DNA of 10,899 nucleotides from the IMG/VR virus record IMGVR_UViG_2529292833_000014, one strand, 5' to 3'. This DNA comes from a virus. Lineage: Duplodnaviria; Heunggongvirae; Uroviricota; Caudoviricetes. The notes beneath the pieces were generated by a model, which was not told where the DNA came from, did not search any database, and saw only the letters and a program-made list of their open reading frames with translations. This document shows positions 1 to 10,335 of this stretch, piece after piece. Position 1 is the stretch's first letter, and every line of letters starts with the position of its first letter. The position numbers and the translations under genes are program-made.

Positions 1-1230
1 ATGAGCAGAGCACTTAACAAACTGAGCGATACACAGCTAAGAAAAATCAACGGCACACCAGCCCCAAAAACCACATTTCTTAATGACGGTGGAAACCTGA
101 GCGTCAGGCATTCCACCAGCGGCTTGTTAACCTGGTATTTCACCTACAGGGCAGGAGCTGGACGCCAGGTATCACCGGAACGCCTGAAGCTGGGAAATTA
201 TCCTGATCTGAGCCTGAAAGCAGCCAGGGAAAAAGCGGCACAGTGTCGCGCATGGCTGGCAGAAGGAAAAAATCCACGCCATGAGCTTAATTACTCCATA
301 CAGGAAGCACTAAAGCCGGTAACGGTGGGTGATGCGATCAGCTACTGGCTGGAAATGCACGTAAAGGAAAACCGTGTCGATTACGTATGCCTGAAAAGCC
401 GCCTGAATAATCACGTCATACAGCATATTGGCAATATGCCACTGGATAAATGCGAGTTACGTCACTGGCTGGCCTGTTTTGACCGGATACGCAAAAAATC
501 CCCTGTAACGTCTGGTCACATGATGCAGGCGTGTAAACAGGCGCTTAAGTTCTGCCGTAAACGTCGCTACGCAGTCAGTAACGTTCTGGATGATCTTAAC
601 GTGGTGGACGTTGGCAAAAAACCAGGCATAAGCGAACGCGTGCTGAGCAACAAAGAACTTGGCGAATTATTACAGGCGCTGGATAAAAAAATATTCCCGC
701 CCTACTACAGCGCACTAATCCGCCTCCTGATTGTGTTCGGCTGCCGAACCGGAGAACTGAGATTATCGGAGATCAGGGAGGGGGATTTTAAGGAAATGCT
801 CTGGACAGTACCGAAAGAGCACAGCAAAACGAAGGTCGCCATATTCAGGCCAATACCGGAAAGCATTTTACCGTTCGTCACGCAGCTGGTGGAGCAGAAC
901 AGACACACAGGGCTATTACTCGGGGAACTGAAACAGGAAGCCAGTGTGTCGCAATACGGCAGATTCATGCACAAAAAATTAAACCATCCGCACTGGTCAC
1001 TACACGATATACGGCGCACGTTTACCACGATGCTGAACGATTTAGGCGTGGATCCGCATATTGTCGAACAACTCACCGCTCACCAGATGCCAGGGATGCA
1101 GCGAGTCTATAACCACTCCCGTTATCTCGATGCGAAACGTAATGCGCTGGACATGTGGACAGAGCGGTTAGAGATACTGGCGGGTACTCACAAAAACGTA
1201 ACCACACTGCCAATAGCCAGAGAAATATAA
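1..1230 (+). CDS. int: Tyrosine recombinase / phage-type integrase (P4-like Int family), 409 aa
   Basis: Full-length ORF. C-terminal region has the HxxR box (HDIRRTF) and a downstream tyrosine (RVYNHSRY) typical of tyrosine recombinases; N-terminus resembles the P4/CP4-57 integrase arm-binding region. The ATG is at window position 1, so upstream signals cannot be assessed. Confidence 0.9.
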   Translation: MSRALNKLSDTQLRKINGTPAPKTTFLNDGGNLSVRHSTSGLLTWYFTYRAGAGRQVSPERLKLGNYPDLSLKAAREKAAQCRAWLAEGKNPRHELNYSIQEALKPVTVGDAISYWLEMHVKENRVDYVCLKSRLNNHVIQHIGNMPLDKCELRHWLACFDRIRKKSPVTSGHMMQACKQALKFCRKRRYAVSNVLDDLNVVDVGKKPGISERVLSNKELGELLQALDKKIFPPYYSALIRLLIVFGCRTGELRLSEIREGDFKEMLWTVPKEHSKTKVAIFRPIPESILPFVTQLVEQNRHTGLLLGELKQEASVSQYGRFMHKKLNHPHWSLHDIRRTFTTMLNDLGVDPHIVEQLTAHQMPGMQRVYNHSRYLDAKRNALDMWTERLEILAGTHKNVTTLPIAREI

Positions 1231-1250
1231 TTTTTTTTGCGATTTTTTAG

Positions 1251-1310
1251 AACTGACACAACGTGAAACAACGAGACACCACGACGAACAACGGCGAACA
1301 ATCTGGAACA
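1251..1310. repeat. Helically phased direct repeat array, five to six 10-bp units (consensus ACGnnGAACA)
   Basis: Seen directly: units ACGTGAAACA, ACGAGACACC, ACGACGAACA, ACGGCGAACA, ATCTGGAACA begin at 1261, 1271, 1281, 1291, 1301 with exact 10-bp period, 20-80 bp after the int stop. Confidence 0.5.
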
Positions 1311-1597
1311 AACTTGATTAACATCTGACTGACACCCTAAAAAGTTGATTTTCAGTCGTTTTACTGGCTTTTTGTACATTGGCGAATCACTCTTAAAAAC
1401 ATGTAAAAAAGGCGTAAAAACAGAATTTTATGCCTTTGCACCACAATGAATTAAAAGAGTTTTTATTCTCATTACCACACTTCTGTAAAATGACCGCCGC
1501 CAGTGTTTGCCATTCCATAAACACCCTGACACAATCCGACGCACCACAACACAATAGGACACCAAATAACTCTTTAAGAAATATCAAAGGGGGAATT

Positions 1598-1786
1598 GTG
1601 TTAAGCACAGATCGCTTTATACGTGAAAAAGAATGTCAGCAACTTACAGGCCTGAGCCGTTCATGTCGGTACCGCCTGGAAAAAACCGGACAATTCCCAT
1701 CACGGCGTAAGCTCGGCGGTCGTTCCGTTGGCTGGTCTTTATCCGAAGTTCTGGCATGGAAGGAAAGCTGCGAGGCAGTTCACTAA
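1598..1786 (+). CDS. alpA: AlpA-family (MerR-like HTH, excisionase/activator type) regulator, about 62 aa from a GTG start
   Basis: Motif QQLTGLSRSCRYRLEKTGQFPSRRKLGGRSVGWSLSEVLAWKES matches the AlpA/Xis-type HTH pattern (LGGR.VGW). GTG at 1598 follows AAAGGGGGA by 4 nt; the ORF is open back to 1430, but that N-terminal extension lacks an RBS and looks non-coding. Confidence 0.7.
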   Translation: MLSTDRFIREKECQQLTGLSRSCRYRLEKTGQFPSRRKLGGRSVGWSLSEVLAWKESCEAVH

Positions 1787-1838
1787 TCAGGCTGGCGGCA
1801 CACAGCCGCCACCCATCCACTAATACAGAGATCTAACC

Positions 1839-2216
1839 ATGAATACTGGATATTCTCCCGAACAAGGGCGGGGCTTCGTTCGTCCTGAAAAACAGAATCT
1901 GCAAAATTTTGCCGAAATTATTCCGGTTATTTCCGGCCTTACTGGCGGGAGTGAAACCAATATTGTTAACGCCAGAGCGTTGCAGATGTTTGATGATAAA
2001 AAGGGAGTAAATTTAACTTACACCCCTGACGGCAATCAGAATATGAGCATTATCTCTGAGTCAGGTTTCTACAAACTAATAAAAACAAAAAGCGCCCCGT
2101 TGCCGGAGCGCCTTTGTGAACAATTAACCTACTGCGCAAAAAATGAATCTGAGCAGTGGGATTATATCAACCGTGTGGCGAAGCGCCACAATTGCCGGAT
2201 AACAGGCAAAACAAAG
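1839..2216 (+). pseudogene. Bro-N-like (phage antirepressor N-terminal domain) gene remnant; only the N-terminal ~125 codons look protein-like
   Basis: Translation DDKKGVNLTYTPDGNQNMSIISESGFYKLIKTKSAPLPERL resembles the Bro-N core (EKGV.LT...GG.Q.MSIINESGLYSLI..S..PEA). The same frame then runs on to 3251 as Ser/Arg-rich low-complexity sequence, antisense to better ORFs and across a promoter region. End coordinate is approximate. Confidence 0.3.
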
Positions 2217-2314
2217 GCCACCCGCTACGGTGGCCCCTCGACACAAGCTACACGTTATCCCCAACGCATGAGCATCACCAACAATGCCACATTTGCGGCT
2301 GGTGGGCAATGTGA

Positions 2315-2503
2315 TCAGTCAGATTTGGTTCGTTCCAAGGTTTGCAACGAGAGCTTTTTCCTGTGCTCTTTAAGGAATTTCTCAAGAGCAAAAGCACATG
2401 GCGCGAATCTTTCTGATTCATGCTCTATCTTTCTGCGCCGTCTTTTCCGTGCCGGTGATAATGTTTTGGTCAATTCTTTATCGGTCATTGTGTTGTCCTG
2501 CAT
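2315..2503 (-). CDS. Hypothetical small basic protein (62 aa)
   Basis: ORF on the minus strand directly downstream of the 2546..2851 gene and co-oriented with it; Lys/Arg-rich (ARKRRRRKIEHE). No recognisable domain. Weak support. Confidence 0.3.
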   Translation of the reverse strand: MQDNTMTDKELTKTLSPARKRRRRKIEHESERFAPCAFALEKFLKEHRKKLSLQTLERTKSD

Positions 2504-2545
2504 AGCAATGCGCCGTAATACCTTACACCACGGCGCTGGTGATGG

Positions 2546-2851
2546 TCACTCCTGCTCTTTGGCCTTGCGACGCTGGAGTTCTTCACGCGCGACGGTGATG
2601 AGTTGCCCGATCTCCTCGGCTGCTTTGACTCCGATTTTTTCCACCTGCGCCAGTGCATCGAGCGAAGAAACCAGGGGATTTTCTCCGCTTCCTTCTGCCT
2701 GGCGGCGGGCGATCTCACCGCGAACGGCTGTAATCACGAAAGCGGCTATTGTTTCCCCTTCCGTTTTCGAATTTTCCATTTCCTCGATTACATCATGGGG
2801 GAAGCGGATATTTTTCATTTGCGATCTGCTGTTGATATTTCCTGTTGCCAT
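2546..2851 (-). CDS. Putative small DNA-binding regulator (101 aa), possibly ribbon-helix-helix type
   Basis: Protein-like composition, in contrast to the Ser-rich opposite-strand frame. The N-terminal segment KNIRFPHDVIEEME followed by helical stretches is compatible with an RHH fold (inference). Transcribed divergently from the operator-bearing promoter region. Confidence 0.5.
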   Translation of the reverse strand: MATGNINSRSQMKNIRFPHDVIEEMENSKTEGETIAAFVITAVRGEIARRQAEGSGENPLVSSLDALAQVEKIGVKAAEEIGQLITVAREELQRRKAKEQE

Positions 2852-2872
2852 CAGAATGTCCGGTTATTTTGA

Positions 2873-2975
2873 GGTGTGCATACATTACACCAAAAGGTGT
2901 GTAAATAAAACACTTGACACTGTAGCGCACTTAAATTTAATCTGTACACACACCAATGATTGTGGTGTATGTACA
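2873..2975. promoter_or_regulatory. Divergent regulatory region: sigma70-like promoter (TTGACA 2914..2919, N16, TTTAAT 2936..2941) with repeated operator-like motif GGTGTRYRTACA
   Basis: Seen directly: GGTGTGCATACA (2873..2884), GGTGTGTAAATA (2896..2907), and an inverted pair TGTACACACACC (2943..2954) / GGTGTATGTACA (2964..2975) with a 9-bp spacer, immediately downstream of the -10 element. Confidence 0.5.
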
Positions 2976-3047
2976 GCAAAGCCCCGCAGTGCTGGAACAC
3001 ATGCAGGGCTTCTAACCACCAACGATAGCGAAAGTATCGAGGTAGCT

Positions 3048-3251
3048 ATGAGAAATTATACCAGACACCCGCAAGGGCGGGACTCGTACAACCTGAATAA
3101 ATACATCTGGCGTTTTATCGCCCTGAGCACGGCACAACCGCGCGTGATTACCATTGAGGCCACCAGCGAACAGGAAGCGCGTCAGCAATCTCCTGATGGC
3201 TGCGTGATGGTATTCGCTGCCCGTATTCGCCAGGGGGAACACCATGATTAA
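3048..3251 (+). CDS. Small protein (67 aa), Icd-like (host cell division inhibitor-like) family candidate
   Basis: ATG at 3048 preceded by GAGGT; motifs YIWRF and VMVFAARIRQGE resemble small prophage/satellite proteins annotated as Icd-like (from memory, moderate certainty). It is the C-terminal part of the long 1839..3251 reading frame. Confidence 0.5.
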   Translation: MRNYTRHPQGRDSYNLNKYIWRFIALSTAQPRVITIEATSEQEARQQSPDGCVMVFAARIRQGEHHD

Positions 3252-3453
3252 CCTGTCACTTACTGACCTTAACCGCGTTCAGTTTCGTGAGAAATTTACC
3301 GGGCAGCTACTGGTCAATGTGGATAAAGGTCGCGTGGTGTGTAATTACCACCTGCCAGATGAAGCCATTGTCGCAACAAGGGAATCATTACAGGAACTCG
3401 CAGAACGTGCCGGAATGATTAACGCGAATATTCAGGGGGTGAGCCATGCATAA
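3244..3453 (+). CDS. Hypothetical small protein (69 aa), paralog 1 of a tandem pair
   Basis: RBS GGGGG 6 nt upstream; start overlaps the previous stop by 8 nt; shares a (V/Y).(V/L)(D/E)KGRV.C core with the next gene. Confidence 0.6.
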   Translation: MINLSLTDLNRVQFREKFTGQLLVNVDKGRVVCNYHLPDEAIVATRESLQELAERAGMINANIQGVSHA

Positions 3454-3658
3454 TCATGAAACGCACTTACCTGTAGTGCTGAATGTGCCATCAGATTATA
3501 CGGGGCGCGTACTGGTGTATCTGGAAAAAGGCCGGGTTAAATGTCAGTGCCGTTTAATGGAAAACGAATTTATTAGCACTCTTGCGGGATTTTCTGAAAT
3601 GCTCACTAAATCGGGTGTTAGTGCAGACCAGTTACGCGGGGGCGATTATGCGAAATAA
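3446..3658 (+). CDS. Hypothetical small protein (70 aa), paralog 2 of a tandem pair
   Basis: RBS GGGGGTGAG upstream; overlaps the stop of paralog 1; about 30 percent identity to paralog 1 by eye (TG..LV...KGRV.C...L.E). Confidence 0.6.
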   Translation: MHNHETHLPVVLNVPSDYTGRVLVYLEKGRVKCQCRLMENEFISTLAGFSEMLTKSGVSADQLRGGDYAK

Positions 3659-3866
3659 ACATGATATTGAAGACCTGGCATTTGAAGCCCTGCACTCTGC
3701 GAAAAAAATCAGGGAAGTCGTCAATATGTGGATGAACAGCCTTAGCACCGATGAATCCGATAGCAGAGAGGAAATTCTTATTTCTTTGTTGTTAGACCTG
3801 GCAAATACACAGGTTTCTCTGACATCTGATATTGAACTCGCCGCTAAAAATCTGCCTCTGGAGTAA
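3648..3866 (+). CDS. Hypothetical small acidic protein (about 72 aa)
   Basis: ATG at 3648 in the 3582..3866 frame, overlapping the previous stop by 11 nt, G-rich RBS upstream. No recognisable domain. Confidence 0.45.
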   Translation: MRNKHDIEDLAFEALHSAKKIREVVNMWMNSLSTDESDSREEILISLLLDLANTQVSLTSDIELAAKNLPLE

Positions 3867-3872
3867 AAAAAC

Positions 3873-4172
3873 ATGAAACAGAAAAATTCTGGCTTTACTG
3901 CCAGTGGTCTCCCTCGGCCTGAAATCCGCCCCGGCGATATTTTCCGGGATAACTACGGTGGCACGGTAACGATTAAAAGCGTGGCGGGGCGGGGCGTTAC
4001 TTACCGCCGTGATGGGTACGGCTATGACTGCGTGATGCCTGCTTATCAGTTCCGGCGTGATTTTTCACTGATACAGGCCACACCACGCAAACAGCCCACC
4101 AGCAACGCAAAGGCACGGGCAAATATTCAGAAAATGAAAAACATGATTAACGCATTCAGGGGCAAAAAATGA
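3873..4172 (+). CDS. Hypothetical protein (99 aa)
   Basis: RBS GGAG about 8 nt upstream; stop overlaps the start of the replication gene (ATGA). No recognisable domain. Confidence 0.6.
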   Translation: MKQKNSGFTASGLPRPEIRPGDIFRDNYGGTVTIKSVAGRGVTYRRDGYGYDCVMPAYQFRRDFSLIQATPRKQPTSNAKARANIQKMKNMINAFRGKK

Positions 4173-5584
4173 AACTGGCACCGAACTTAAAAAAACAGCC
4201 ACACGACAAAATGACCGAAGTCATTATTTTTGCGGGTAGTGATGCCTGGGCGCACGCGAAACAGTGGCAGGAACAGGACGGGCGACTTGCTGGTGATAAC
4301 GTCCCGCCTGTATGGCTGGGAGACAGCCAGCTTGACGAACTGGCAGACCTGAAAATTATCGACGATGGTCGCTATTGTGTCCGGCTGTACAAGGCAGGCC
4401 ACATCAAGCCGTCAAATATTAATGCTATCGGGCAAAAGCTGGCGGCGGCAGGTGTACGGGATGCGAATTATTACCCTGATGGAATGCACAGCCAGAAGCT
4501 GGAGAACTGGCACGACTACCTGCAACGGATCCGCGAACAGGCAGAGCGCGGGGAAATACTTACTGACGAGCAATACAGCCAGCGAAAAACCACGCTACCA
4601 ATGAGCATTGGATCTGCAGGGTACGACACACAGCTTGATTATGTCGTTAAGGGCGTGATTCCGGCTAATTCATTGTGCAGCACATACGGCGCGAGCGGTT
4701 CCTATAAATCGTTCCTCGCGTGTTCCTGGGCGTGTCATGTTGCCACTGGCCGTCACTGGGGAGGCCGCAGGGTGGCGCATGGTTCGGTGATGTATGTTGT
4801 CGGTGAAGGTGGCATTGGTGCCCCCCGCCGTATCAAGGCATGGGAAATCGTTAATGATGAACGGGTGGAAAATCTGTACCTGGTAAACCGCCCGATTTTT
4901 CCGGCAGTCCCGCTTGATGTTGATGAAATGGTCATCGCTTCCCGCCAGGTTGAACGGGAAACGGGTAAACCGGTACGCATGATTATTCTTGATACGCTGG
5001 CGCGTTGCTTTGGCGGTAATGATGAAAATGACGCGCGGGATATGGGGGCGTTTATCCGTGGATGTGACGAACTGAAACGCCGCACAGGGGCCACGGTGCT
5101 GGTGGTTCACCATTCCGGCAAGGATGAAACAAAGGGGGCGCGTGGTTCCAGTGCATTTCGTGCATCTCTGGACGCTGAATACCGTATTCGCCGTGAAGGT
5201 GCAGACAGTGAAGCCCTGGTTATCTCCTGCACAAAAATGAAGGACGCGGAGGAACTGAAAGAGGCCGCATACGATTTACGTGTGGGGGAGCTTTTTACCG
5301 ACACTGACGGGGAGTTAATCACGTCGCTGGTTGTTGTGGATAAGCCGCGCCCACCCGTTGAACTGGAGCGCATCGAGGAAGCCGGGAACAAGACGGAGAA
5401 TCATGCCGCGCTATGGGGCTGTATCCGTTCACGCACACAGCGCGGAGATAAATGCACTATTCCGTTGTTGCGCGATGATATGAAAAAGCTGGGGTATGAG
5501 ATGAAACACTTCCGGCGCTGGCTGTACAAGCTGGAAGGTGATGGCGTTATTGCTATTGACGGTGATGACGTGCGCCCACTGTAA
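4169..5584 (+). CDS. Replication initiator / RepA-like (AAA_25, RecA-fold) ATPase with a probable C-terminal DNA-binding domain, 471 aa
   Basis: P-loop-like YGASGSYKSFLA, Walker-B-like hydrophobic stretch ending in D (MIILDTLARCFGG), and VLVVHHSGKD typical of RepA/DnaB-like AAA_25 proteins; followed immediately by an iteron cluster. Translationally coupled to the upstream gene. Confidence 0.8.
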   Translation: MKLAPNLKKQPHDKMTEVIIFAGSDAWAHAKQWQEQDGRLAGDNVPPVWLGDSQLDELADLKIIDDGRYCVRLYKAGHIKPSNINAIGQKLAAAGVRDANYYPDGMHSQKLENWHDYLQRIREQAERGEILTDEQYSQRKTTLPMSIGSAGYDTQLDYVVKGVIPANSLCSTYGASGSYKSFLACSWACHVATGRHWGGRRVAHGSVMYVVGEGGIGAPRRIKAWEIVNDERVENLYLVNRPIFPAVPLDVDEMVIASRQVERETGKPVRMIILDTLARCFGGNDENDARDMGAFIRGCDELKRRTGATVLVVHHSGKDETKGARGSSAFRASLDAEYRIRREGADSEALVISCTKMKDAEELKEAAYDLRVGELFTDTDGELITSLVVVDKPRPPVELERIEEAGNKTENHAALWGCIRSRTQRGDKCTIPLLRDDMKKLGYEMKHFRRWLYKLEGDGVIAIDGDDVRPL

Positions 5585-5776
5585 AAAGTGGGTAGTAAAA
5601 GTGGGGAGTGTGGGGAATTTAACAAAATTGAAACGTGATTCCCCACTTTCCCACCTGTATATACCCCAAAAAGTGGGGAATAAAAAACACATTGAAAAAC
5701 ATCACGTTAGAATCACAAAAAAAAGAAGTGGGGAGACGTTGGGTAATTTCAAAAAGTGGGTAGTAAAAGTGGGGAG
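5583..5776. repeat. Iteron-type origin of replication: two identical 26-bp direct repeats flanking further AAGTGGGGA(G) copies and an AT-rich spacer
   Basis: Seen directly: AAAAAGTGGGTAGTAAAAGTGGGGAG at 5583..5608 and 5751..5776 (identical); extra copies at 5609..5617, 5671..5680, 5726..5735 and one inverted at 5639..5648; AT-rich stretch 5680..5725. Confidence 0.65.
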
Positions 5777-5785
5777 CAGTGAGGA

Positions 5786-6037
5786 ATGACCAGAAAAACC
5801 AGAGATAAGACAGCGCCAAAATATAAAGCGTTAGACATGACAGAGCACGCCTTAAAGGTGGCAATCAGAACGATAGACCGCCACGCTGGGGAAGGATACG
5901 CGAAAGCACACCCCGAACTGATAAGCGCATTCATGACCACGACGGCGGCAAACTTTGCCACGCTGACAGAACGGGAGATTGCCGAAGCGGAACAGGTGAC
6001 AACCATCAACGTTAAAACTGGAGAGCAGACAGCATGA
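5786..6037 (+). CDS. Hypothetical protein (83 aa)
   Basis: GGGGAG 9 nt upstream of the ATG; stop overlaps the ssb start (ATGA). No recognisable domain. Confidence 0.5.
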   Translation: MTRKTRDKTAPKYKALDMTEHALKVAIRTIDRHAGEGYAKAHPELISAFMTTTAANFATLTEREIAEAEQVTTINVKTGEQTA

Positions 6038-6399
6038 CAGCACAGATAGCGGCTTACGGGCGGCTGGTGGCTGACCCGCAGTTAAAGACCACCAGCAAGG
6101 GTACACAAATGACGATGGCTAGTATGGCGGTCCCCCTTCCGTGCAGCCAGGCAGATGACGGAACGGCGACGATGTGGTTATCCGTCCTGGCGTTTGGCAG
6201 ACAGGCCGACGCACTGGCAAAACACCACAAAGGCGAACTGGTGAGCGTGGCGGGTAACATGCAGGTAAGGCAGTGGACAGGCCAGAACGGCGAAACGCGG
6301 CAGGGCTGGCAGGTTATCGCAGACAGTGTAATCAGTGCCAGAACGGCGCGACCGGGCGGCAAAAAAAAGGTCAACAGGACCAGGCTACTGACGCACTGA
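6034..6399 (+). CDS. ssb: Single-stranded DNA-binding protein (OB-fold core), 121 aa in the zero frame; the canonical acidic tail is encoded in the -1 frame
   Basis: WLSVLAFGRQADALAKHHKGELVSVAGNMQVRQWTGQNGETRQGWQV aligns with the E. coli SSB core (WHRVVLFGKLAEVA...GQLRTRKWTDQSGQDR). The zero frame ends ...GGKKKVNRTRLLTH without a tail. Confidence 0.75.
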   Translation: MTAQIAAYGRLVADPQLKTTSKGTQMTMASMAVPLPCSQADDGTATMWLSVLAFGRQADALAKHHKGELVSVAGNMQVRQWTGQNGETRQGWQVIADSVISARTARPGGKKKVNRTRLLTH

Positions 6400-6458
6400 A
6401 CAGGGCAAAACAACAGTCGGGGAATGATGATCCGTACGGCGATAATATACCGTTTTAA
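6363..6458 (+). other. -1 frame segment encoding the SSB linker and acidic tail (...QQSGNDDPYGDNIPF), reached from the ssb frame at the A8 run / A_AAA_AAG heptamer (6363..6369)
   Basis: Seen directly by translating the -1 frame from the A run 6361..6368. The tail tip DNIPF matches the conserved SSB C-terminus (DDDIPF in E. coli SSB). Confidence 0.6.
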
Positions 6459-6475
6459 ATTCTGCAAATAAAAAA

Positions 6476-6504
6476 ATGCCGGAAGAAAATAGATTTTCCG
6501 GCAT
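6476..6504 (-). terminator. Intrinsic-terminator-like hairpin oriented for leftward transcription
   Basis: Perfect 9-bp stem ATGCCGGAA (6476..6484) / TTCCGGCAT (6496..6504) with an 11-nt loop. The A7 run at 6470..6476 becomes the U tract only on the minus strand; there is no T run after the hairpin on the plus strand. Confidence 0.4.
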
Positions 6505-6675
6505 GCTACATAAATCCCGACCAAAGGAAGTAAATACATTAACACGAATTATCAGCACTGAAGTTGTCACGGCAGATTTTATACAACATTGCACTTGGTT
6601 GCATGTATTCGCATAGCAAATATCGGTGATAGCATATATCCACAATTATTTTTAATGAATGCAAAGAGGATGCGT

Positions 6676-7716
6676 ATGGTTGATTTATATTCGCCTGCCC
6701 AGCTTGTGCAGGTGGCTAATGCTGAAGATGTGCAAAAAAAATTAAATGCGTTGTTTACCAGTTTGTTTTTCACTCGCTCGGTAATGTTTGAATCGAGAGA
6801 CATTATTCTTGATACGATCGACGATCCAAATATCCCGATCGCGGCGTTTTGCTCTCCTATGGTGGGCAGTAAGGTTTCACGAGATGAGGGATACGAATCA
6901 AAAACAATTCGCCCTGGCTATATGAAACCGAAAAGCAGCATTGATCCAAATAAGTTAGCTGTGCGCCCTGCTGGTGTGTCACCTGAGCAATACAATGCTT
7001 TTGGGGCGCGTAATATTAAAGTTAAACAGGCGATTGTAAATCAGGCTAAAGCTATTCGTGCACGTATTGAATGGCTTGCTGTTCAGGCAATCACAACGGG
7101 GAAAAATATCATTGAGGGCGATGGTATTGAACGTTATGAGCTGGACTGGAATATAAAACCACAAAATATTATCACGCAGTCTGGCGGTGCTGAGTGGTCA
7201 GGTAAGGATAAAGAAACTTTTGATCCAAATGATGATATTGAGAGCTACGCAGAATTTAGTGAGGGCGTCACTAATATCATCATTATGGGCGGTAATGTAT
7301 GGAAGAAATACCGTTCATTCAGAGCGATAAAAGAGGCTCTGGATACCCGTCGTGGTTCTAATTCCGAACTGGAAACGGCCCTTAAAGACCTTGGTGATTC
7401 GGTGAGTTTTAAAGGGTATATGGGCGATGTTGCGATTGTTGTTTACAGCGGACGTTATACCGACGAGGACGGAACTGAAAAACATTTCCTTGATCCTGAT
7501 TTGATGGTGCTTGGCAATACGGCTCTTCAGGGGATTGTCGCCTATGGCGGTATTCAGGATCCGGAGCTAATCCGAATGGGGCTGACTAAAGCCGAACTTG
7601 CACCGAAAAACTATATTGTGCCTGGTGATCCGGCTATTGAGTACGTACAAACGCACTCTGCACCACAGCCAATACCGGCCCGCATCAATCGTTTTGTTAC
7701 CGTTCGCATTGGCTAA
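6676..7716 (+). CDS. Major capsid protein, lambda gpE-like (about 346 aa)
   Basis: Long collinear matches to lambda gpE as recalled: ITQSGGAEWSGKDKETFDPNDDIESYA vs ITQSGGTEWSKRDKSTYDPTDDIEAYA, and LDTRRGSNSELETALKDLGDSVSFKGYMGDVAIVVYSGRY vs LDTRRGSNSELETAVKDLGKAVSYKGMYGDVAIVVYSGQY. Start chosen at ATG 6676 (GAGG 6 nt upstream); the ORF is open from 6589. Confidence 0.9.
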   Translation: MVDLYSPAQLVQVANAEDVQKKLNALFTSLFFTRSVMFESRDIILDTIDDPNIPIAAFCSPMVGSKVSRDEGYESKTIRPGYMKPKSSIDPNKLAVRPAGVSPEQYNAFGARNIKVKQAIVNQAKAIRARIEWLAVQAITTGKNIIEGDGIERYELDWNIKPQNIITQSGGAEWSGKDKETFDPNDDIESYAEFSEGVTNIIIMGGNVWKKYRSFRAIKEALDTRRGSNSELETALKDLGDSVSFKGYMGDVAIVVYSGRYTDEDGTEKHFLDPDLMVLGNTALQGIVAYGGIQDPELIRMGLTKAELAPKNYIVPGDPAIEYVQTHSAPQPIPARINRFVTVRIG

Positions 7717-7725
7717 GGGGGAGCA

Positions 7726-8067
7726 ATGGCTACTCATTACACTGAACTCATGTCTGGCACTGAAGCACTGGTTACTACGCTGGGGATATTTTCAGCCAAT
7801 AAAGGGGTAATACCTGCGTTTACGCCACTGATGCAGGAAGATGCAACTGGTGCGCTAGTGGTATGGGATGGAACGAGCGCAGGCAAAGCGGTTTATGTTT
7901 CCGCTGTACAAATCGACACAGCGAAAAAAACACAGGCACAGGTTTATAAGACAGGTGTTTTAAATGTTGATGCTCTGAACTGGCCTGAGTCTGTAAAAGA
8001 ACTGTCGGCAAAGGTTGCCGCGTTTGTTGGCTCAGGTATTTCTGTTCAGCCGCTGGCTCGTGTGTAA
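7726..8067 (+). CDS. Head decoration protein, lambda gpD-like (113 aa)
   Basis: FTPLMQEDATGALVVWDGTSAGKAV...YKTGVLNVDALNWPE matches lambda gpD [25 protein letters not shown]...YKSGTFRYEDVLWPE (recalled); similar length; RBS AAGGGGGAG. Confidence 0.85.
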   Translation: MATHYTELMSGTEALVTTLGIFSANKGVIPAFTPLMQEDATGALVVWDGTSAGKAVYVSAVQIDTAKKTQAQVYKTGVLNVDALNWPESVKELSAKVAAFVGSGISVQPLARV

Positions 8068-8078
8068 AGGGGGATACA

Positions 8079-8462
8079 ATGCAGAATCATTACAATGACC
8101 TTAAGCCAATTGCCGAAATGATGTATCCGGATCCAGCAGTAGAGGAATTAAAGGCTATTGCTGACAAAATGCGTTTAAGTGAACGCCTTGTTGATATGAA
8201 TCAGGTGATGGAACTTACTACCCTTAGCCGTCGCACATTGCTAAACCTTGAGGCTCGCGGAGAGTTCCCCGAACGCGTACAGGTTACGGAAGGGCGTGAG
8301 GCCTGGTATTTAAGCGAAGTGATCGACTGGATAAACAATATTCCTCGAGCTTCTGAATATTGCCGCGTACCTGTCCCAAAAAAGCCAGATGCGGCGCTAT
8401 GCCTCAAGATTGAGCGTGTACGCCGCAATGCACGGGATGGTCGCTATAAGTTGATTGGTTGA
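8079..8462 (+). CDS. AlpA/MerR-like HTH domain protein (127 aa) with N- and C-terminal extensions
   Basis: Central segment MNQVMELTTLSRRTLLNLEARGEFPERVQVTEGREAWYLSEVIDWINN has the AlpA/excisionase-type HTH pattern; RBS AAAGGGGGA. Sits between the decoration gene and the cos site. Confidence 0.65.
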   Translation: MQNHYNDLKPIAEMMYPDPAVEELKAIADKMRLSERLVDMNQVMELTTLSRRTLLNLEARGEFPERVQVTEGREAWYLSEVIDWINNIPRASEYCRVPVPKKPDAALCLKIERVRRNARDGRYKLIG

Positions 8463-8488
8463 TGAAATTAGGGCCCGTTCTGGCTGGC

Positions 8489-8600
8489 GGGTCCTTTCCG
8501 GCGATCCGGTAGGCTACGGGGCGGCGACCTTGCGGATTTTCGCTATTTATGAGCCTTTTCGGGTTGGTGGTGGTGGTTTTGTTTTTCGCTCTATCTCTAT
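8489..8600. other. Lambda-type cos site (cosQ-proximal region, cosN with 12-nt cohesive-end sequence GGGCGGCGACCT at 8519..8530, divergent cosB-like region)
   Basis: Seen directly and compared with the recalled lambda termini: GGGTCCTTTCCGGCGATCCGGTAGGCTACG / GGGCGGCGACCT / TGCGGATTTTCGCTATTTATGAGCCTTTTCGGGTT versus lambda GGGTCCTTTCCGGTGATCCGACAGGTTACG / GGGCGGCGACCT / CGCGGGTTTTCGCTATTTATGAAAATTTTCCGGTT. Sequence diverges from lambda downstream of about 8567. Confidence 0.8.
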
Positions 8601-8663
8601 GAATAAAAAGGGAAAGATAACACCAACACACCAACCTGAAACCTTAACTAAGTGGGGATATTG

Positions 8664-9206
8664 ATGAAATCGCACCTGATGAACAAAAAAACTATGGCGC
8701 AAAGCTGCCGCGTAAGTGCGACAGCGTTCGACAAGTGGGGAGTAACTCCCGTTGAGCGTAAAGGCCGTGAGGCGTTTTATGATGTTGCTAGCGTGATAGA
8801 CAATAGGGTTAACAATGCAATTAACCAGCTTACAAACGACAAAGGCGAGATTGATGATGATGAACTTTTACGCGTAAGAATCAGATTGCTGACAGCACAG
8901 GCGGAAGCGCAGGAACTTAAAAACGAGCGCGAACGCGGCGAGGTGATTGATACAAAGTTTTGCATCTACGCGATTTCAAAACTAGCGAGTCAGATTTCAT
9001 CAATCATGGACAGCCTCCCGCTCACAATGCAAAGGCGCTTTCCCGATATAAGGCCGTATATGCTGGATGAACTAAAAAGGGAAATAGCCAAAGCATGTAA
9101 CGCATGTGCAAGACTTGACGAAAACCTGCCACAGATACTGGCTGATTACCTGATGGAAACTACCGGAAGCGCGCCTGAGAAGTTGCTACAGAACAAAGGC
9201 GAGTAA
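8664..9206 (+). CDS. Terminase small subunit homolog, lambda gpNu1-like (candidate packaging-redirecting protein)
   Basis: RLLTAQAEAQELKNERERGEVIDTKFCIYAISKLASQISSIMDSLPLTMQRRFPDI matches lambda Nu1 RLTRAQADAQELKNARDSAEVVETAFCTFVLSRIAGEIASILDGLPLSVQRRFPEL (recalled); the N-terminal NKKTMAQ aligns with Nu1 NKKQLAD. Start is uncertain: ATG 8664 has the best RBS (GGGGA, 5 nt), ATG 8679 fits the Nu1 alignment best, and the ORF is open from 8652. Confidence 0.85.
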   Translation: MKSHLMNKKTMAQSCRVSATAFDKWGVTPVERKGREAFYDVASVIDNRVNNAINQLTNDKGEIDDDELLRVRIRLLTAQAEAQELKNERERGEVIDTKFCIYAISKLASQISSIMDSLPLTMQRRFPDIRPYMLDELKREIAKACNACARLDENLPQILADYLMETTGSAPEKLLQNKGE

Positions 9207-9279
9207 CCGCCGCCCCGTAACGGGCCATAATTCCAGGAAGGACCTGACGACACCAGGCTATCAGAGCGATGGGGGCACA

Positions 9280-9561
9280 ATGACAGAAGCCGAAATACTG
9301 CGATTAATCCGCCGCGTTACCGGAATCAGCCAGCAGGCTGACGAACAGGCCACGCAGCCGGACAGCGTGACCGCTGAAAATTATGTGCGTGTTGTTGCTG
9401 AGGTGATGCGCCGTGACGGTATCGAGCTTAACGGCGTGGATATGCGCAACATACGCACCAGAGTTCTGGAGATGTTGTCGTACCGTCGCCGCGTGCAGAT
9501 GTACCAAGAGAAAGAAAAAATTACTTACCACTGGAAGAAGCCGGAACGGTTACGACGTTAA
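9280..9561 (+). CDS. Hypothetical protein (93 aa)
   Basis: ORF with GGGGG 4 nt upstream of the ATG; no recognisable domain; last gene before the non-coding boundary region. Confidence 0.45.
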   Translation: MTEAEILRLIRRVTGISQQADEQATQPDSVTAENYVRVVAEVMRRDGIELNGVDMRNIRTRVLEMLSYRRRVQMYQEKEKITYHWKKPERLRR

Positions 9562-9607: not shown

Positions 9608-10093
9608 AGACGGTATTTAAATCGGGTGGTGTTTAATACCCCCAGGGGGATAGAAATCCCTACACCTCATTGCTTATGGGACCGCCCGCCTACCCTTGTT
9701 CACATCGCCGCAGGTTCGAAAACTTTTTTTGGGAAGGTGTGCACGGGATTGATAGATGAGGTCTATCTATAAAAAATCACAAAATCCGCGCCATTGCTGG
9801 ATCCGCCAAAAATCCCCCACCTTACGGCAGACAAAGAAAACGCGAATTATGGGCCTGTTGCAGAGAAAAAAGGTCTCACTAGTTTTGCGCACCCTAGCAT
9901 CGAGGTTCGTCAGCCTCCCATCAGCAACCAGATAACTAATCTCGCTGGTGGGCATGATGCCGATATGGGGACTTCCATAACGGTTTATCCGTGATCATCC
10001 ACCAGCTTCATGGCGGATAGCCGGAAAATGATAACGGTATAGCCCGTCGCTTGTGTCTATTTGTTCCGCATTGTTGCATACAGTGCACCGAAC

Positions 10094-10117
10094 GGTGTAG
10101 TTAATGGTGTAGTTAAT
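10094..10117. repeat. Perfect tandem duplication of the 12-mer GGTGTAGTTAAT
   Basis: Seen directly at 10094..10105 and 10106..10117, in the AT-rich region upstream of the Smr-domain gene. Confidence 0.85.
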
Positions 10118-10335
10118 TTGCGATTTTTAACGTTATTTGCAGCGATGTTTGTTGGTTAAATTCAATAAGTTATGCGCATTTAATTATAAATATCGTGAAT
10201 GAATAATCATGCATAAGCATTTTGCTTAAAATATCGGCAATATTTGGAACTTATTACTGGAATTTTGGGTAATACGTTGTTGGACCGACCCGGTCTGGTT
10301 ATCATATCGCGCTCTTAATTGCGGGAGGATGTAAC

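What the first reader, a model, noticed from the sequence alone, without database searches (positions are those of the whole stretch)
5583..5776. Iteron-type origin immediately downstream of the replication ATPase gene
Two identical 26-bp direct repeats 168 bp apart bracket at least four more AAGTGGGGA(G) copies (one inverted) and an AT-rich 45-bp stretch. This is the expected layout for an origin bound by the upstream Rep protein through its C-terminal domain and melted at the AT-rich spacer.
Basis: seen in the sequence. Interest (0 to 1): 0.5.

Follow-up and report, generated by a model that had tools for sequence, protein, structure and literature searches.

The report
Replication origin of a phage satellite
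The repeats are real and are almost certainly the replication origin of a small E. coli phage-parasitic island (a PICI), a kind of origin already described, so the finding is correct but ordinary.

Summary
The 201-bp gap between the rep stop codon (5582-5584) and the next gene (5786) holds about eleven copies of a GTGGG(G/T)A motif, against 0.14 expected by chance. They are split into two sets by a 24%-GC stretch. The window is a roughly 10-kb phage-inducible chromosomal island (PICI) at the abgR-smrA site, the same site and att core as the published EcCIEC2733.1. Fillol-Salom et al. 2018 already described this layout for Gram-negative PICIs and showed one such origin, from EcCICFT073, to be functional. 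In 77 of 86 related rep loci across Enterobacterales, short repeats sit in the same place, mostly in the same order. The repeat sequence tracks one residue at the start of the recognition helix of a predicted C-terminal winged-helix domain of Rep: His gives GTGGGG, Asn GTGAGG, Ser/Gly GTGCGG and Lys GTGGGGG. Four closely matched E. coli His/Asn pairs follow this rule. Regulator-operator, second cis site, DnaA-dependent and promoter readings were tested and rejected. The origin reading is well supported, but no replication or binding experiment exists for this Rep type. One difference from studied cases: this Rep is a RepA/DnaB-like (RecA-fold) helicase, not the SF3/SF6 type. Verdict: new member of a known kind, low to moderate interest.

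The parts
3873..4172 (+). DUF4222 gene, overlapping the rep start by 4 bp (ATGA). It always precedes rep in related islands, whatever the Rep type.
   Evidence: Pfam DUF4222, E=1.8e-23; annotations of relatives
4169..5584 (+). rep: a 471-aa RepA-family (AAA_25, RecA-fold) helicase. It has a ~130-aa N-terminal domain, no primase domain, and a C-terminal winged helix.
   Evidence: Pfam AAA_25, E=6.5e-44; RSF1010 RepA 1g8y is the only PDB sequence hit; RadA/Rad51 fold matches; AF2 model
5366..5581 (+). Coding region for the predicted winged-helix domain (Rep residues 400-471: helices 410-425, 431-440, 448-457; beta hairpin 461-470).
   Evidence: pLDDT 83-93. The Foldseek matches listed include the winged-helix DNA-binding domains of DtxR, PcaR, LexA, Fur and MexR and linker histone H1, with probabilities 0.95-0.99.
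5507..5509 (+). Codon for His447, at the N-cap of the recognition helix (K446-H447-F448-R-R-W451). This is the residue that covaries with iteron base 4.
   Evidence: H gives G, N gives A, S/G gives C, K gives G(G) across 86 loci and four matched pairs
5582..5785 (.). The whole origin region: the complete rep to orf83 intergenic gap.
5583..5608 (+). Left 26-bp repeat, made of two 13-bp iteron units (cores 5588-5594 GTGGGTA and 5601-5607 GTGGGGA).
5610..5616 (+). Third direct iteron core, GTGGGGA.
5640..5648 (-). Inverted iteron AAGTGGGGA. It forms a 12-bp perfect inverted repeat with 5670-5681. A degenerate inverted copy lies at 5650-5656.
   Evidence: (I3)
5656..5663 (.). TGTATATA core midway between the head-to-head iterons. 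It is conserved independently of iteron specificity, and its function is unknown.
   Evidence: TGTATA at offset ~82 in 33 of 86 loci, about 10-fold above background; Xenorhabdus has CATATATAC at the same place
5671..5679 (+). Direct iteron AAGTGGGGA bordering the AT-rich stretch.
5678..5727 (.). AT-rich spacer (24% GC), the presumed DNA unwinding element.
   Evidence: the lowest-GC window sits between the iteron sets in 47 of 86 loci
5726..5785 (+). Right iteron set: 5726-5734, degenerate 5738-5745, the right 26-bp repeat 5751-5776 (two units), and degenerate GTGAGGA at 5779-5785, which doubles as the Shine-Dalgarno sequence of the next gene.
5786..6037 (+). orf83 (phrog_1231, function unknown), the first gene after the origin. 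Many related islands with other Rep types begin to match the window exactly here.
6034..6399 (+). Island-encoded single-strand DNA-binding protein, probably part of the replication module (flagged frameshifted in the RefSeq twin).
   Evidence: Pfam SSB, E=8.6e-17

Best explanation
5582-5785 is the Rep-dependent vegetative replication origin of a phage-inducible chromosomal island. Several copies of the island's Rep bind the ~11 GTGGG(G/T)A iterons through a C-terminal winged-helix domain. His447, at the start of the recognition helix, reads the fourth base of the core. Rep is a RepA/DnaB-like RecA-fold helicase. Loading of Rep on both sides strains and opens the 24%-GC spacer (5678-5727). Rep then assembles as a ring helicase on the single strands without a separate loader, the island's own SSB coats the strands, and host primase and polymerase take over. 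This would happen after helper-phage induction and excision, and would yield the multimeric DNA that is packaged from the cos site at 8519. What is shown directly: the repeats, their enrichment, the conserved layout, the concerted iteron changes, the covariation with Rep residue 447, and the predicted winged-helix fold. What is inferred: actual binding, the melting site, self-loading, and use of host DnaG.
For: The repeats are 9 copies against 0.14 expected, and the AT-rich spacer is in the lowest 0.6% of 45-nt windows. The window is a PICI with int, AlpA, DUF4222, rep, SSB, capsid E-like, decoration D-like and Nu1-like terS genes. It has a lambda cosN and sits at the abgR-smrA site with the att core of the published EcCIEC2733.1. 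[quoted passage not shown] SaPI Reps bind such iterons through a C-terminal winged helix (PMC9371898). In 77 of 86 related loci there are at least 5 copies of a short motif within 320 bp after the rep stop, with a median 69-fold enrichment and the same order of elements. All iteron copies, including the inverted one, change together between relatives (alignment A3). The residue-to-base association is H with G in 11/11, N with A in 28/28, S with C in 7/7 and K with G in 31/32. Four matched E. coli backgrounds follow it; window versus L088 are identical over the last 33 residues except H447N. Islands with a different Rep family but 98%-identical AlpA2 and about 80-90% similar downstream genes carry unrelated repeats (GGTAGA) at the same position, and the similarity resumes at 5785. 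A 17-kb circular record from K. pneumoniae carries the same module (KSF with GTGCGG), consistent with an episomal form.
Against: There is no experimental test of this Rep type. The one validated Gram-negative PICI origin (EcCICFT073) uses a D5/primase-type Rep unrelated to this one in its ATPase domain. Rep's C-terminus and the iterons are under 300 bp apart, so linkage alone would produce some association between them. Linkage does not, however, explain why all copies change in concert. The Foldseek E-values for the small winged-helix domain are weak (0.04-0.3). This Rep has no primase domain, so priming is unexplained. The full-length AF2 model is poor in the ATPase core (mean pLDDT 67).
Confidence: 0.85

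Rival explanations
1. The repeats are Rep-binding sites whose main role is control rather than initiation, for example autoregulation, copy-number control by handcuffing, or exclusion of co-resident islands. On this reading, initiation happens elsewhere or needs another site.
For: Iterons in plasmids serve both roles (established knowledge; reviews listed). E. coli genomes carry up to 8 related places. At least five iteron specificities exist.
Against: The AT-rich spacer sits between the two sets, as in validated SaPI and PICI origins. No second iteron cluster covaries with Rep elsewhere in the island. The repeats lie downstream of rep, not at its promoter. Co-resident islands in Xenorhabdus share the same specificity, which argues against strong exclusion.
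Confidence: 0.08
2. The repeats are operator sites for an island transcription factor (one of the two AlpA-like proteins), or a promoter, controlling the downstream orf83-ssb-capsid operon.
For: The array ends in the ribosome-binding site of the next gene. AlpA-family regulators are encoded at 1430-1786 and 8079-8462.
Against: L003 has a 98%-identical AlpA2 and similar downstream genes but completely different repeats, which go with its different Rep. The iteron sequence tracks a Rep residue. No sigma-70-like promoter or terminator was found in 5300-6100.
Confidence: 0.04
3. The repeats are a packaging or recombination site (cos/pac/att), or repeats without function.
For: Satellites carry cis sites for packaging and integration.
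Against: A perfect lambda cosN lies at 8519-8530, next to the Nu1-like gene. The att repeats lie at the island ends. The layout is conserved across Enterobacterales, with concerted changes that argue for selection.
Confidence: 0.02

Closest known systems
PICI / SaPI rep-ori modules (SaPI1, SaPIbov1, EfCIV583; Gram-negative EcCICFT073; Fillol-Salom et al. 2018, PMC6092414; Qiao et al. 2022, PMC9371898)
   Same: The origin lies directly 3' of rep, with two sets of short iterons around an AT-rich centre. Rep is both initiator and helicase and carries a C-terminal winged helix. The rep+ori pair is exchanged as a unit between islands. The island context is the same (int, alpA, cos, ~10 kb), and the island site matches the listed EcCIEC2733.1.
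   Different: The ATPase here is AAA_25 / RecA-fold (RSF1010 RepA-like, SF4-like). It is not the SF3 or SF6 AAA+ type of SaPI Reps, nor the D5/primase type of EcCICFT073. This Rep has no primase domain. Most iterons point one way, with one head-to-head pair around a conserved TGTATAYA core. This specific origin has not been tested.
IncQ plasmid RSF1010 oriV with RepA helicase, RepC initiator and RepB' primase
   Same: The helicase family is the same (1g8y is the only PDB sequence hit), and the origin has iterons next to an AT-rich region.
   Different: In RSF1010 iteron binding is done by a separate protein (RepC), and priming by RepB' at ssi hairpins. Here the DNA-binding domain is fused to the helicase, the iterons are 7-9 bp cores rather than 20-mers, and no RepC or RepB' homologue was seen among the ORFs scanned.
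Satellite phage P4 alpha protein with ori and crr
   Same: Both are satellites of temperate coliphages. In both, a single replication protein combines helicase and C-terminal origin binding and recognises short repeated octamers.
   Different: P4 alpha is a primase plus SF3 helicase, and P4 needs a second repeat cluster (crr) kilobases away. Here the two extra AAGTGGGGA copies at 8650 and 8733 do not follow Rep type.
Iteron plasmids with Rep_3-type initiators (pPS10 RepA, F RepE, R6K pi)
   Same: A winged-helix initiator binds directly repeated iterons beside an AT-rich unwinding element.
   Different: Those initiators are not helicases. Their iterons are 17-22 bp at regular spacing, and DnaA boxes and host DnaB/DnaC loading are required. 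No DnaA box occurs in any of 91 origins of this class.

Membership tests
PICI/SaPI-type replication origin | Lies immediately 3' of the replication initiator gene | tested here: met
   The first iteron overlaps the rep stop codon at 5582-5584. The position is the same in 77 of 86 related loci.
PICI/SaPI-type replication origin | [quoted passage not shown] | tested here: met
   The left set is 5586-5679 and the right set 5726-5785. The spacer 5678-5727 is 24% GC.
PICI/SaPI-type replication origin | The cognate Rep is a helicase with a C-terminal winged-helix domain specific for the iterons | tested here: met
   Predicted winged helix at residues 400-471. The residue 447 to iteron base covariation includes four matched pairs. 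Physical binding was not tested.
PICI/SaPI-type replication origin | The rep-ori segment drives Rep- and ori-dependent autonomous replication | not testable with these tools
   Only indirect support: a circular 17-kb record carries the same module. The published test used EcCICFT073.
PICI/SaPI-type replication origin | The host element is a PICI (int, alpA, unidirectional genes, ~10-15 kb, att sites, no tail or lysis genes) | tested here: met
   The att core and abgR(lysR)-smrA site are those of the listed EcCIEC2733.1.
PICI/SaPI-type replication origin | Rep ATPase of the SF3/SF6 AAA+ or D5-primase type, as in the experimentally studied members (a property of studied members, not a formal criterion) | tested here: not met
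   AAA_25 / RecA-fold with RSF1010 RepA as the only PDB sequence hit. The D5-type Rep is found instead in the sister island L003.
Iteron plasmid origin (Rep_3 initiators) | The initiator is a WH1-WH2 Rep_3 protein without helicase activity | tested here: not met
   Pfam finds only AAA_25 in Rep.
Iteron plasmid origin (Rep_3 initiators) | DnaA boxes within the origin | tested here: not met
   There is no TTWTNCACA in 91 origins of this class. Within 5582-5785 the closest match has 2 mismatches and is an iteron.
IncQ (RSF1010) oriV | RepA-family (AAA_25) replicative helicase | tested here: met
IncQ (RSF1010) oriV | Separate iteron-binding initiator (RepC) and a dedicated primase acting at ssi hairpins | tested here: not met
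   No such domains were found in the ORFs scanned. The DNA-binding domain is fused to the helicase. ssi sites were not searched for.
P4 ori/crr | A second cis-acting cluster of the same repeats at a distance (crr) | tested here: not met
   The copies at 8650 and 8733 are kept in islands with unrelated Rep and iterons, and one lies in a conserved coding motif.

The most novel reading that the evidence does not exclude
This rep-ori module may represent an uncharacterised class of one-protein initiators: a RecA-fold, RepA/DnaB-like (SF4-type) helicase that finds its own origin through a fused winged helix and loads itself. In many relatives it also carries a Zn-ribbon/Toprim primase. Its origin specificity would be re-set by a single residue (His/Asn/Ser/Lys at position 447 paired with G/A/C/G at iteron base 4). 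That would give satellites a simple way to diversify into replicon specificity groups that do not cross-react.
Probability: 0.35. Interest if true: 0.45.

Novelty: new member of a known kind. Interest (0 to 1): 0.25.

Why it matters
Mostly this confirms the annotation: it marks where this island's origin lies and which protein fires it. That is useful for annotating the roughly one third of complete E. coli genomes that carry related modules (1868 of 5426). It is also useful for building PICI-based delivery vectors. The one piece that goes beyond the literature I could search is the one-residue to one-base specificity rule, together with the fact that the initiator is a RecA-fold helicase. These make a clean, cheap mutagenesis test of origin recognition possible.

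Tried and rejected
1. AlpA operator: rejected, because L003 has a 98%-identical AlpA2 but unrelated repeats.
2. P4-like second cis site: the extra AAGTGGGGA copies at 8650 and 8733 are conserved regardless of Rep type, and one encodes a conserved FDKWGV motif.
3. DnaA-dependent origin: there is no DnaA box in the origin or in 91 relatives. The perfect box at 5335-5343 lies in rep coding sequence and is kept only in a few close relatives.
4. Promoter or terminator: none found in 5300-6100.
5. Known RNA: no Rfam hit in the window.
6. Coding potential of overlapping ORFs (for example 5538-5789): the origin alignment has 1- and 2-nt indels, so no reading frame is kept.
7. Phage collection: no similar module in 50,697 phage records.
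8. Full-length fold search: only RecA/Rad51 cores, nothing informative for the N-terminal domain. Pfam at relaxed thresholds gave nothing for residues 1-150.
9. Literature search for the iteron string returned only unrelated papers.
10. Exclusion between co-resident islands as the driver of specificity change: weakened, because Xenorhabdus genomes hold two islands of the same specificity.

Full report
OBSERVATION. An exact 26-bp direct repeat lies at 5583-5608 and 5751-5776, 168 bp apart. Each 26-mer is two 13-bp units. AAGTGGGKA occurs seven times in 5586-5775, once inverted at 5640-5648. The whole window holds nine copies where 0.14 are expected, and no shuffle out of 200 reached nine. With core-only and degenerate copies (5610, 5650 inverted, 5738, 5779) there are about eleven sites. 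The stretch 5681-5725 is 24% GC, and only 0.6% of 45-nt windows in the window are as AT-rich.

CONTEXT. The window is 99.9% identical to E. coli O114:H49 strain 90-9280 between abgR and smrA. It encodes the following, all on one strand:
- a tyrosine integrase and an AlpA regulator;
- two phrog_340 proteins and a DUF4222 protein;
- the AAA_25 'helicase RepA family' protein, followed by the repeats;
- a small ORF and an SSB;
- lambda E-like capsid and D-like decoration proteins;
- a second AlpA-like protein and a Nu1-family small terminase.
A perfect lambda cosN (GGGCGGCGACCT) lies at 8519-8530. This is the gene set of a Gram-negative phage-inducible chromosomal island (PICI). The supplementary table of Fillol-Salom et al. 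2018 lists a 10.5-kb PICI, EcCIEC2733.1, at 'lysR-smrA' with att core ACATTATTAATATCGTGA. That 18-mer lies 192 bp upstream of the window's first base in the twin locus, and a 3-mismatch copy lies near window 10181.

WHAT IS ALREADY KNOWN. [quoted passage not shown] It also shows that the EcCICFT073 rep-ori segment maintains a temperature-sensitive plasmid only when both rep and ori are intact (PMC6092414). For SaPIs, Rep proteins are self-loading helicases whose C-terminal winged helix recognises six to twelve short iterons just downstream of rep (PMC9371898).

COMPARATIVE TEST OF THE LAYOUT. I collected 80 loci encoding relatives of Rep from one genome per species, several E. coli loci and contigs encoding chosen Rep variants. 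In 77 of 86 loci with enough sequence, a short motif occurs at least five times within 320 bp after the rep stop codon. The median enrichment over the rest of the locus is 69-fold. The order of elements is largely the same from Escherichia to Xenorhabdus, Pectobacterium, Serratia and Morganella:
- two or three direct copies;
- one inverted copy;
- a TGTATAYA-like core;
- one direct copy;
- an AT-rich stretch;
- three to five direct copies.
The lowest-GC 40-mer lies between the two sets in 47 of 86 loci.

WHO BINDS THE REPEATS. Three lines of evidence point to Rep.

First, modularity. A sister island (L003) has 98%-identical AlpA2 and about 80-90% similar downstream genes, but a D5/primase-type Rep. 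At the same position it carries unrelated repeats (GGTAGA / TCTACC). Many E. coli genomes match the window only from position 5785 onward. The repeats therefore travel with rep, not with the regulators or the downstream operon.

Second, concerted change. In an alignment of eight E. coli origins, every copy, including the inverted one, reads either GTGGGG or GTGAGG, while the flanking spacing is kept.

Third, residue-to-base covariation. AlphaFold2 predicts residues 400-471 with pLDDT of about 90 as three helices plus a beta hairpin. The closest solved structures include the winged-helix DNA-binding domains of DtxR, PcaR, LexA, Fur and MexR and linker histone H1, with probabilities 0.95-0.99 and rmsd 2.3-3.3 A, though the E-values are weak for so small a domain. 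His447 is the residue just before helix 3, in the motif K-H-F-R-R-W-L-x-K-L. Across the loci the pairing between this residue and the iteron is as follows:
- His goes with GTG-G-GG in 11 of 11 loci;
- Asn goes with GTG-A-GG in 28 of 28;
- Ser goes with GTG-C-GG in 7 of 7;
- Gly goes with C in 1 of 1;
- Lys goes with G in 31 of 32, with an extra G in the core.
Clades are not independent, so I looked for matched pairs. Four E. coli helix backgrounds exist in both His and Asn forms: RRWLYKLEGDG, RRWLYKLESDG, RRWLGKLEKDG and SRWLRKLEKDG. In all eight cases the origin next to the gene has the predicted iteron. The window and L088 are identical over the last 33 residues except H447N.

One caveat applies. 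The codon and the iterons are under 300 bp apart, so linkage contributes to the association. Linkage does not explain why all copies in an origin agree with each other.

RIVALS AND NEGATIVES. The following alternatives were tested.
- No sigma-70-like promoter or intrinsic terminator is found in 5300-6100, so the gap is probably read through from rep.
- No DnaA box occurs in this or any of 91 related origins. The perfect box at 5335-5343 lies in rep coding sequence and is kept only in close relatives.
- The two extra AAGTGGGGA copies at 8650 and 8733 stay the same in islands with other Rep types, so they are not a P4-like second site.
- Rfam finds nothing in the window.
- The phage collection holds no similar module.
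- The plasmid collection holds circular records that are really satellites. One is a 17-kb K. pneumoniae record with the KSF/GTGCGG version of this module, which fits an episomal replicating form.

WHAT DIFFERS FROM THE STUDIED CASES. The ATPase core is AAA_25. RSF1010 RepA is the only PDB sequence hit, and the core gives RecA/Rad51 fold matches. It is therefore a RecA-fold, DnaB/RepA-like helicase, not the SF3 or SF6 AAA+ helicases of SaPI Reps or the D5 type of EcCICFT073. Relatives in Xenorhabdus carry an N-terminal Zn-ribbon plus Toprim primase; the longer relatives in Serratia and Pectobacterium probably do too, but their domains were not scanned. The window's protein instead has a ~130-aa domain of unknown function that is 61% identical to the N-terminus of the D5-type Rep in L003. 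How priming is achieved is open. A conserved TGTATAYA core between the head-to-head iterons is also unexplained.

VERDICT. This is a new, untested member of a known kind of origin, in an island that sits at the site of a catalogued PICI. Confidence that it is the Rep-dependent origin is 0.85. Interest is low to moderate (0.25). The modest added value is the single-residue specificity rule and the different helicase superfamily.

Noticed in passing
window 8519-8530: A perfect lambda-type cosN sequence, GGGCGGCGACCT, lies about 120 bp upstream of the Nu1-family small-terminase-like gene (8652-9206). The island is therefore probably packaged by a lambdoid cos helper.
   Followed up: partly
window ~10093-10116 and ~10181-10198; L001 4641-4658 and 4786-4809: There are two candidate att repeats. 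One is a 24-nt perfect direct repeat, CGGTGTAGTTAATGGTGTAGTTAA, which is the att listed for another PICI (EcCIDI14). The other is the published EcCIEC2733.1 att core, ACATTATTAATATCGTGA, perfect on the left and with 3 mismatches on the right. Which one is the crossover site was not resolved.
   Followed up: partly
window 1839-3251 (+) and 2546-2851 (-): The 470-aa plus-strand ORF that RefSeq calls 'Icd-like' has no Pfam hit. It overlaps a minus-strand 101-aa ORF that is 68% identical to the annotated YlcI/YnfO protein of a sister island. The long ORF is probably a mis-call and the YlcI/YnfO gene is missing from the annotation.
   Followed up: partly
window 6034-6399: The island SSB is 121 aa here against 136-141 aa in relatives, and it is flagged as frameshifted in the RefSeq twin. 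A replication accessory gene may be decaying.
   Followed up: no
window 4169-4570 (Rep residues 1-131) and 3873-4172: The Rep N-terminal domain is confidently folded (alpha/beta, pLDDT ~88) with no family match. It is 61% identical to the N-terminus of an otherwise unrelated D5-type Rep (L003). A mosaic junction therefore lies inside rep near residue 135. This domain always follows a DUF4222 gene with an ATGA overlap, which suggests the two work together.
   Followed up: partly
window 5656-5663: A TGTATATA core sits midway between the head-to-head iteron pair. It is conserved across iteron specificities (exact TGTATA in 33 of 86 loci at the same offset; CATATATAC in Xenorhabdus). Its role is unknown; it could be a second melting point or a host-factor site.
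   Followed up: partly
window 5335-5343 (-) and 3318-3326 (-): There are two perfect DnaA-box 9-mers, TTATCCACA, in 10.9 kb. The first is 250 bp before the rep stop, inside rep coding sequence, and is kept only in a few close relatives, so it is probably chance.
   Followed up: partly
window 8650-8658 and 8733-8741: Two more AAGTGGGGA copies lie at the start of the terS-like gene. They are conserved in islands with unrelated Rep and iterons, so they are not Rep-linked.
   Followed up: yes
L096 (CP018459.1, 16,971 bp) and L097 (NZ_CP148328.1, 10,790 bp): Two circular 'plasmid' records are really satellites carrying integrase, capsid and terminase genes. These are probably excised episomal forms assembled as separate replicons.
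   Followed up: partly
L087 7006-7120; L100 1974-2140: In two E. coli islands the origin is truncated after the left iteron set or the AT-rich region, and the downstream genes are partial. These are examples of decayed replicons.
   Followed up: no
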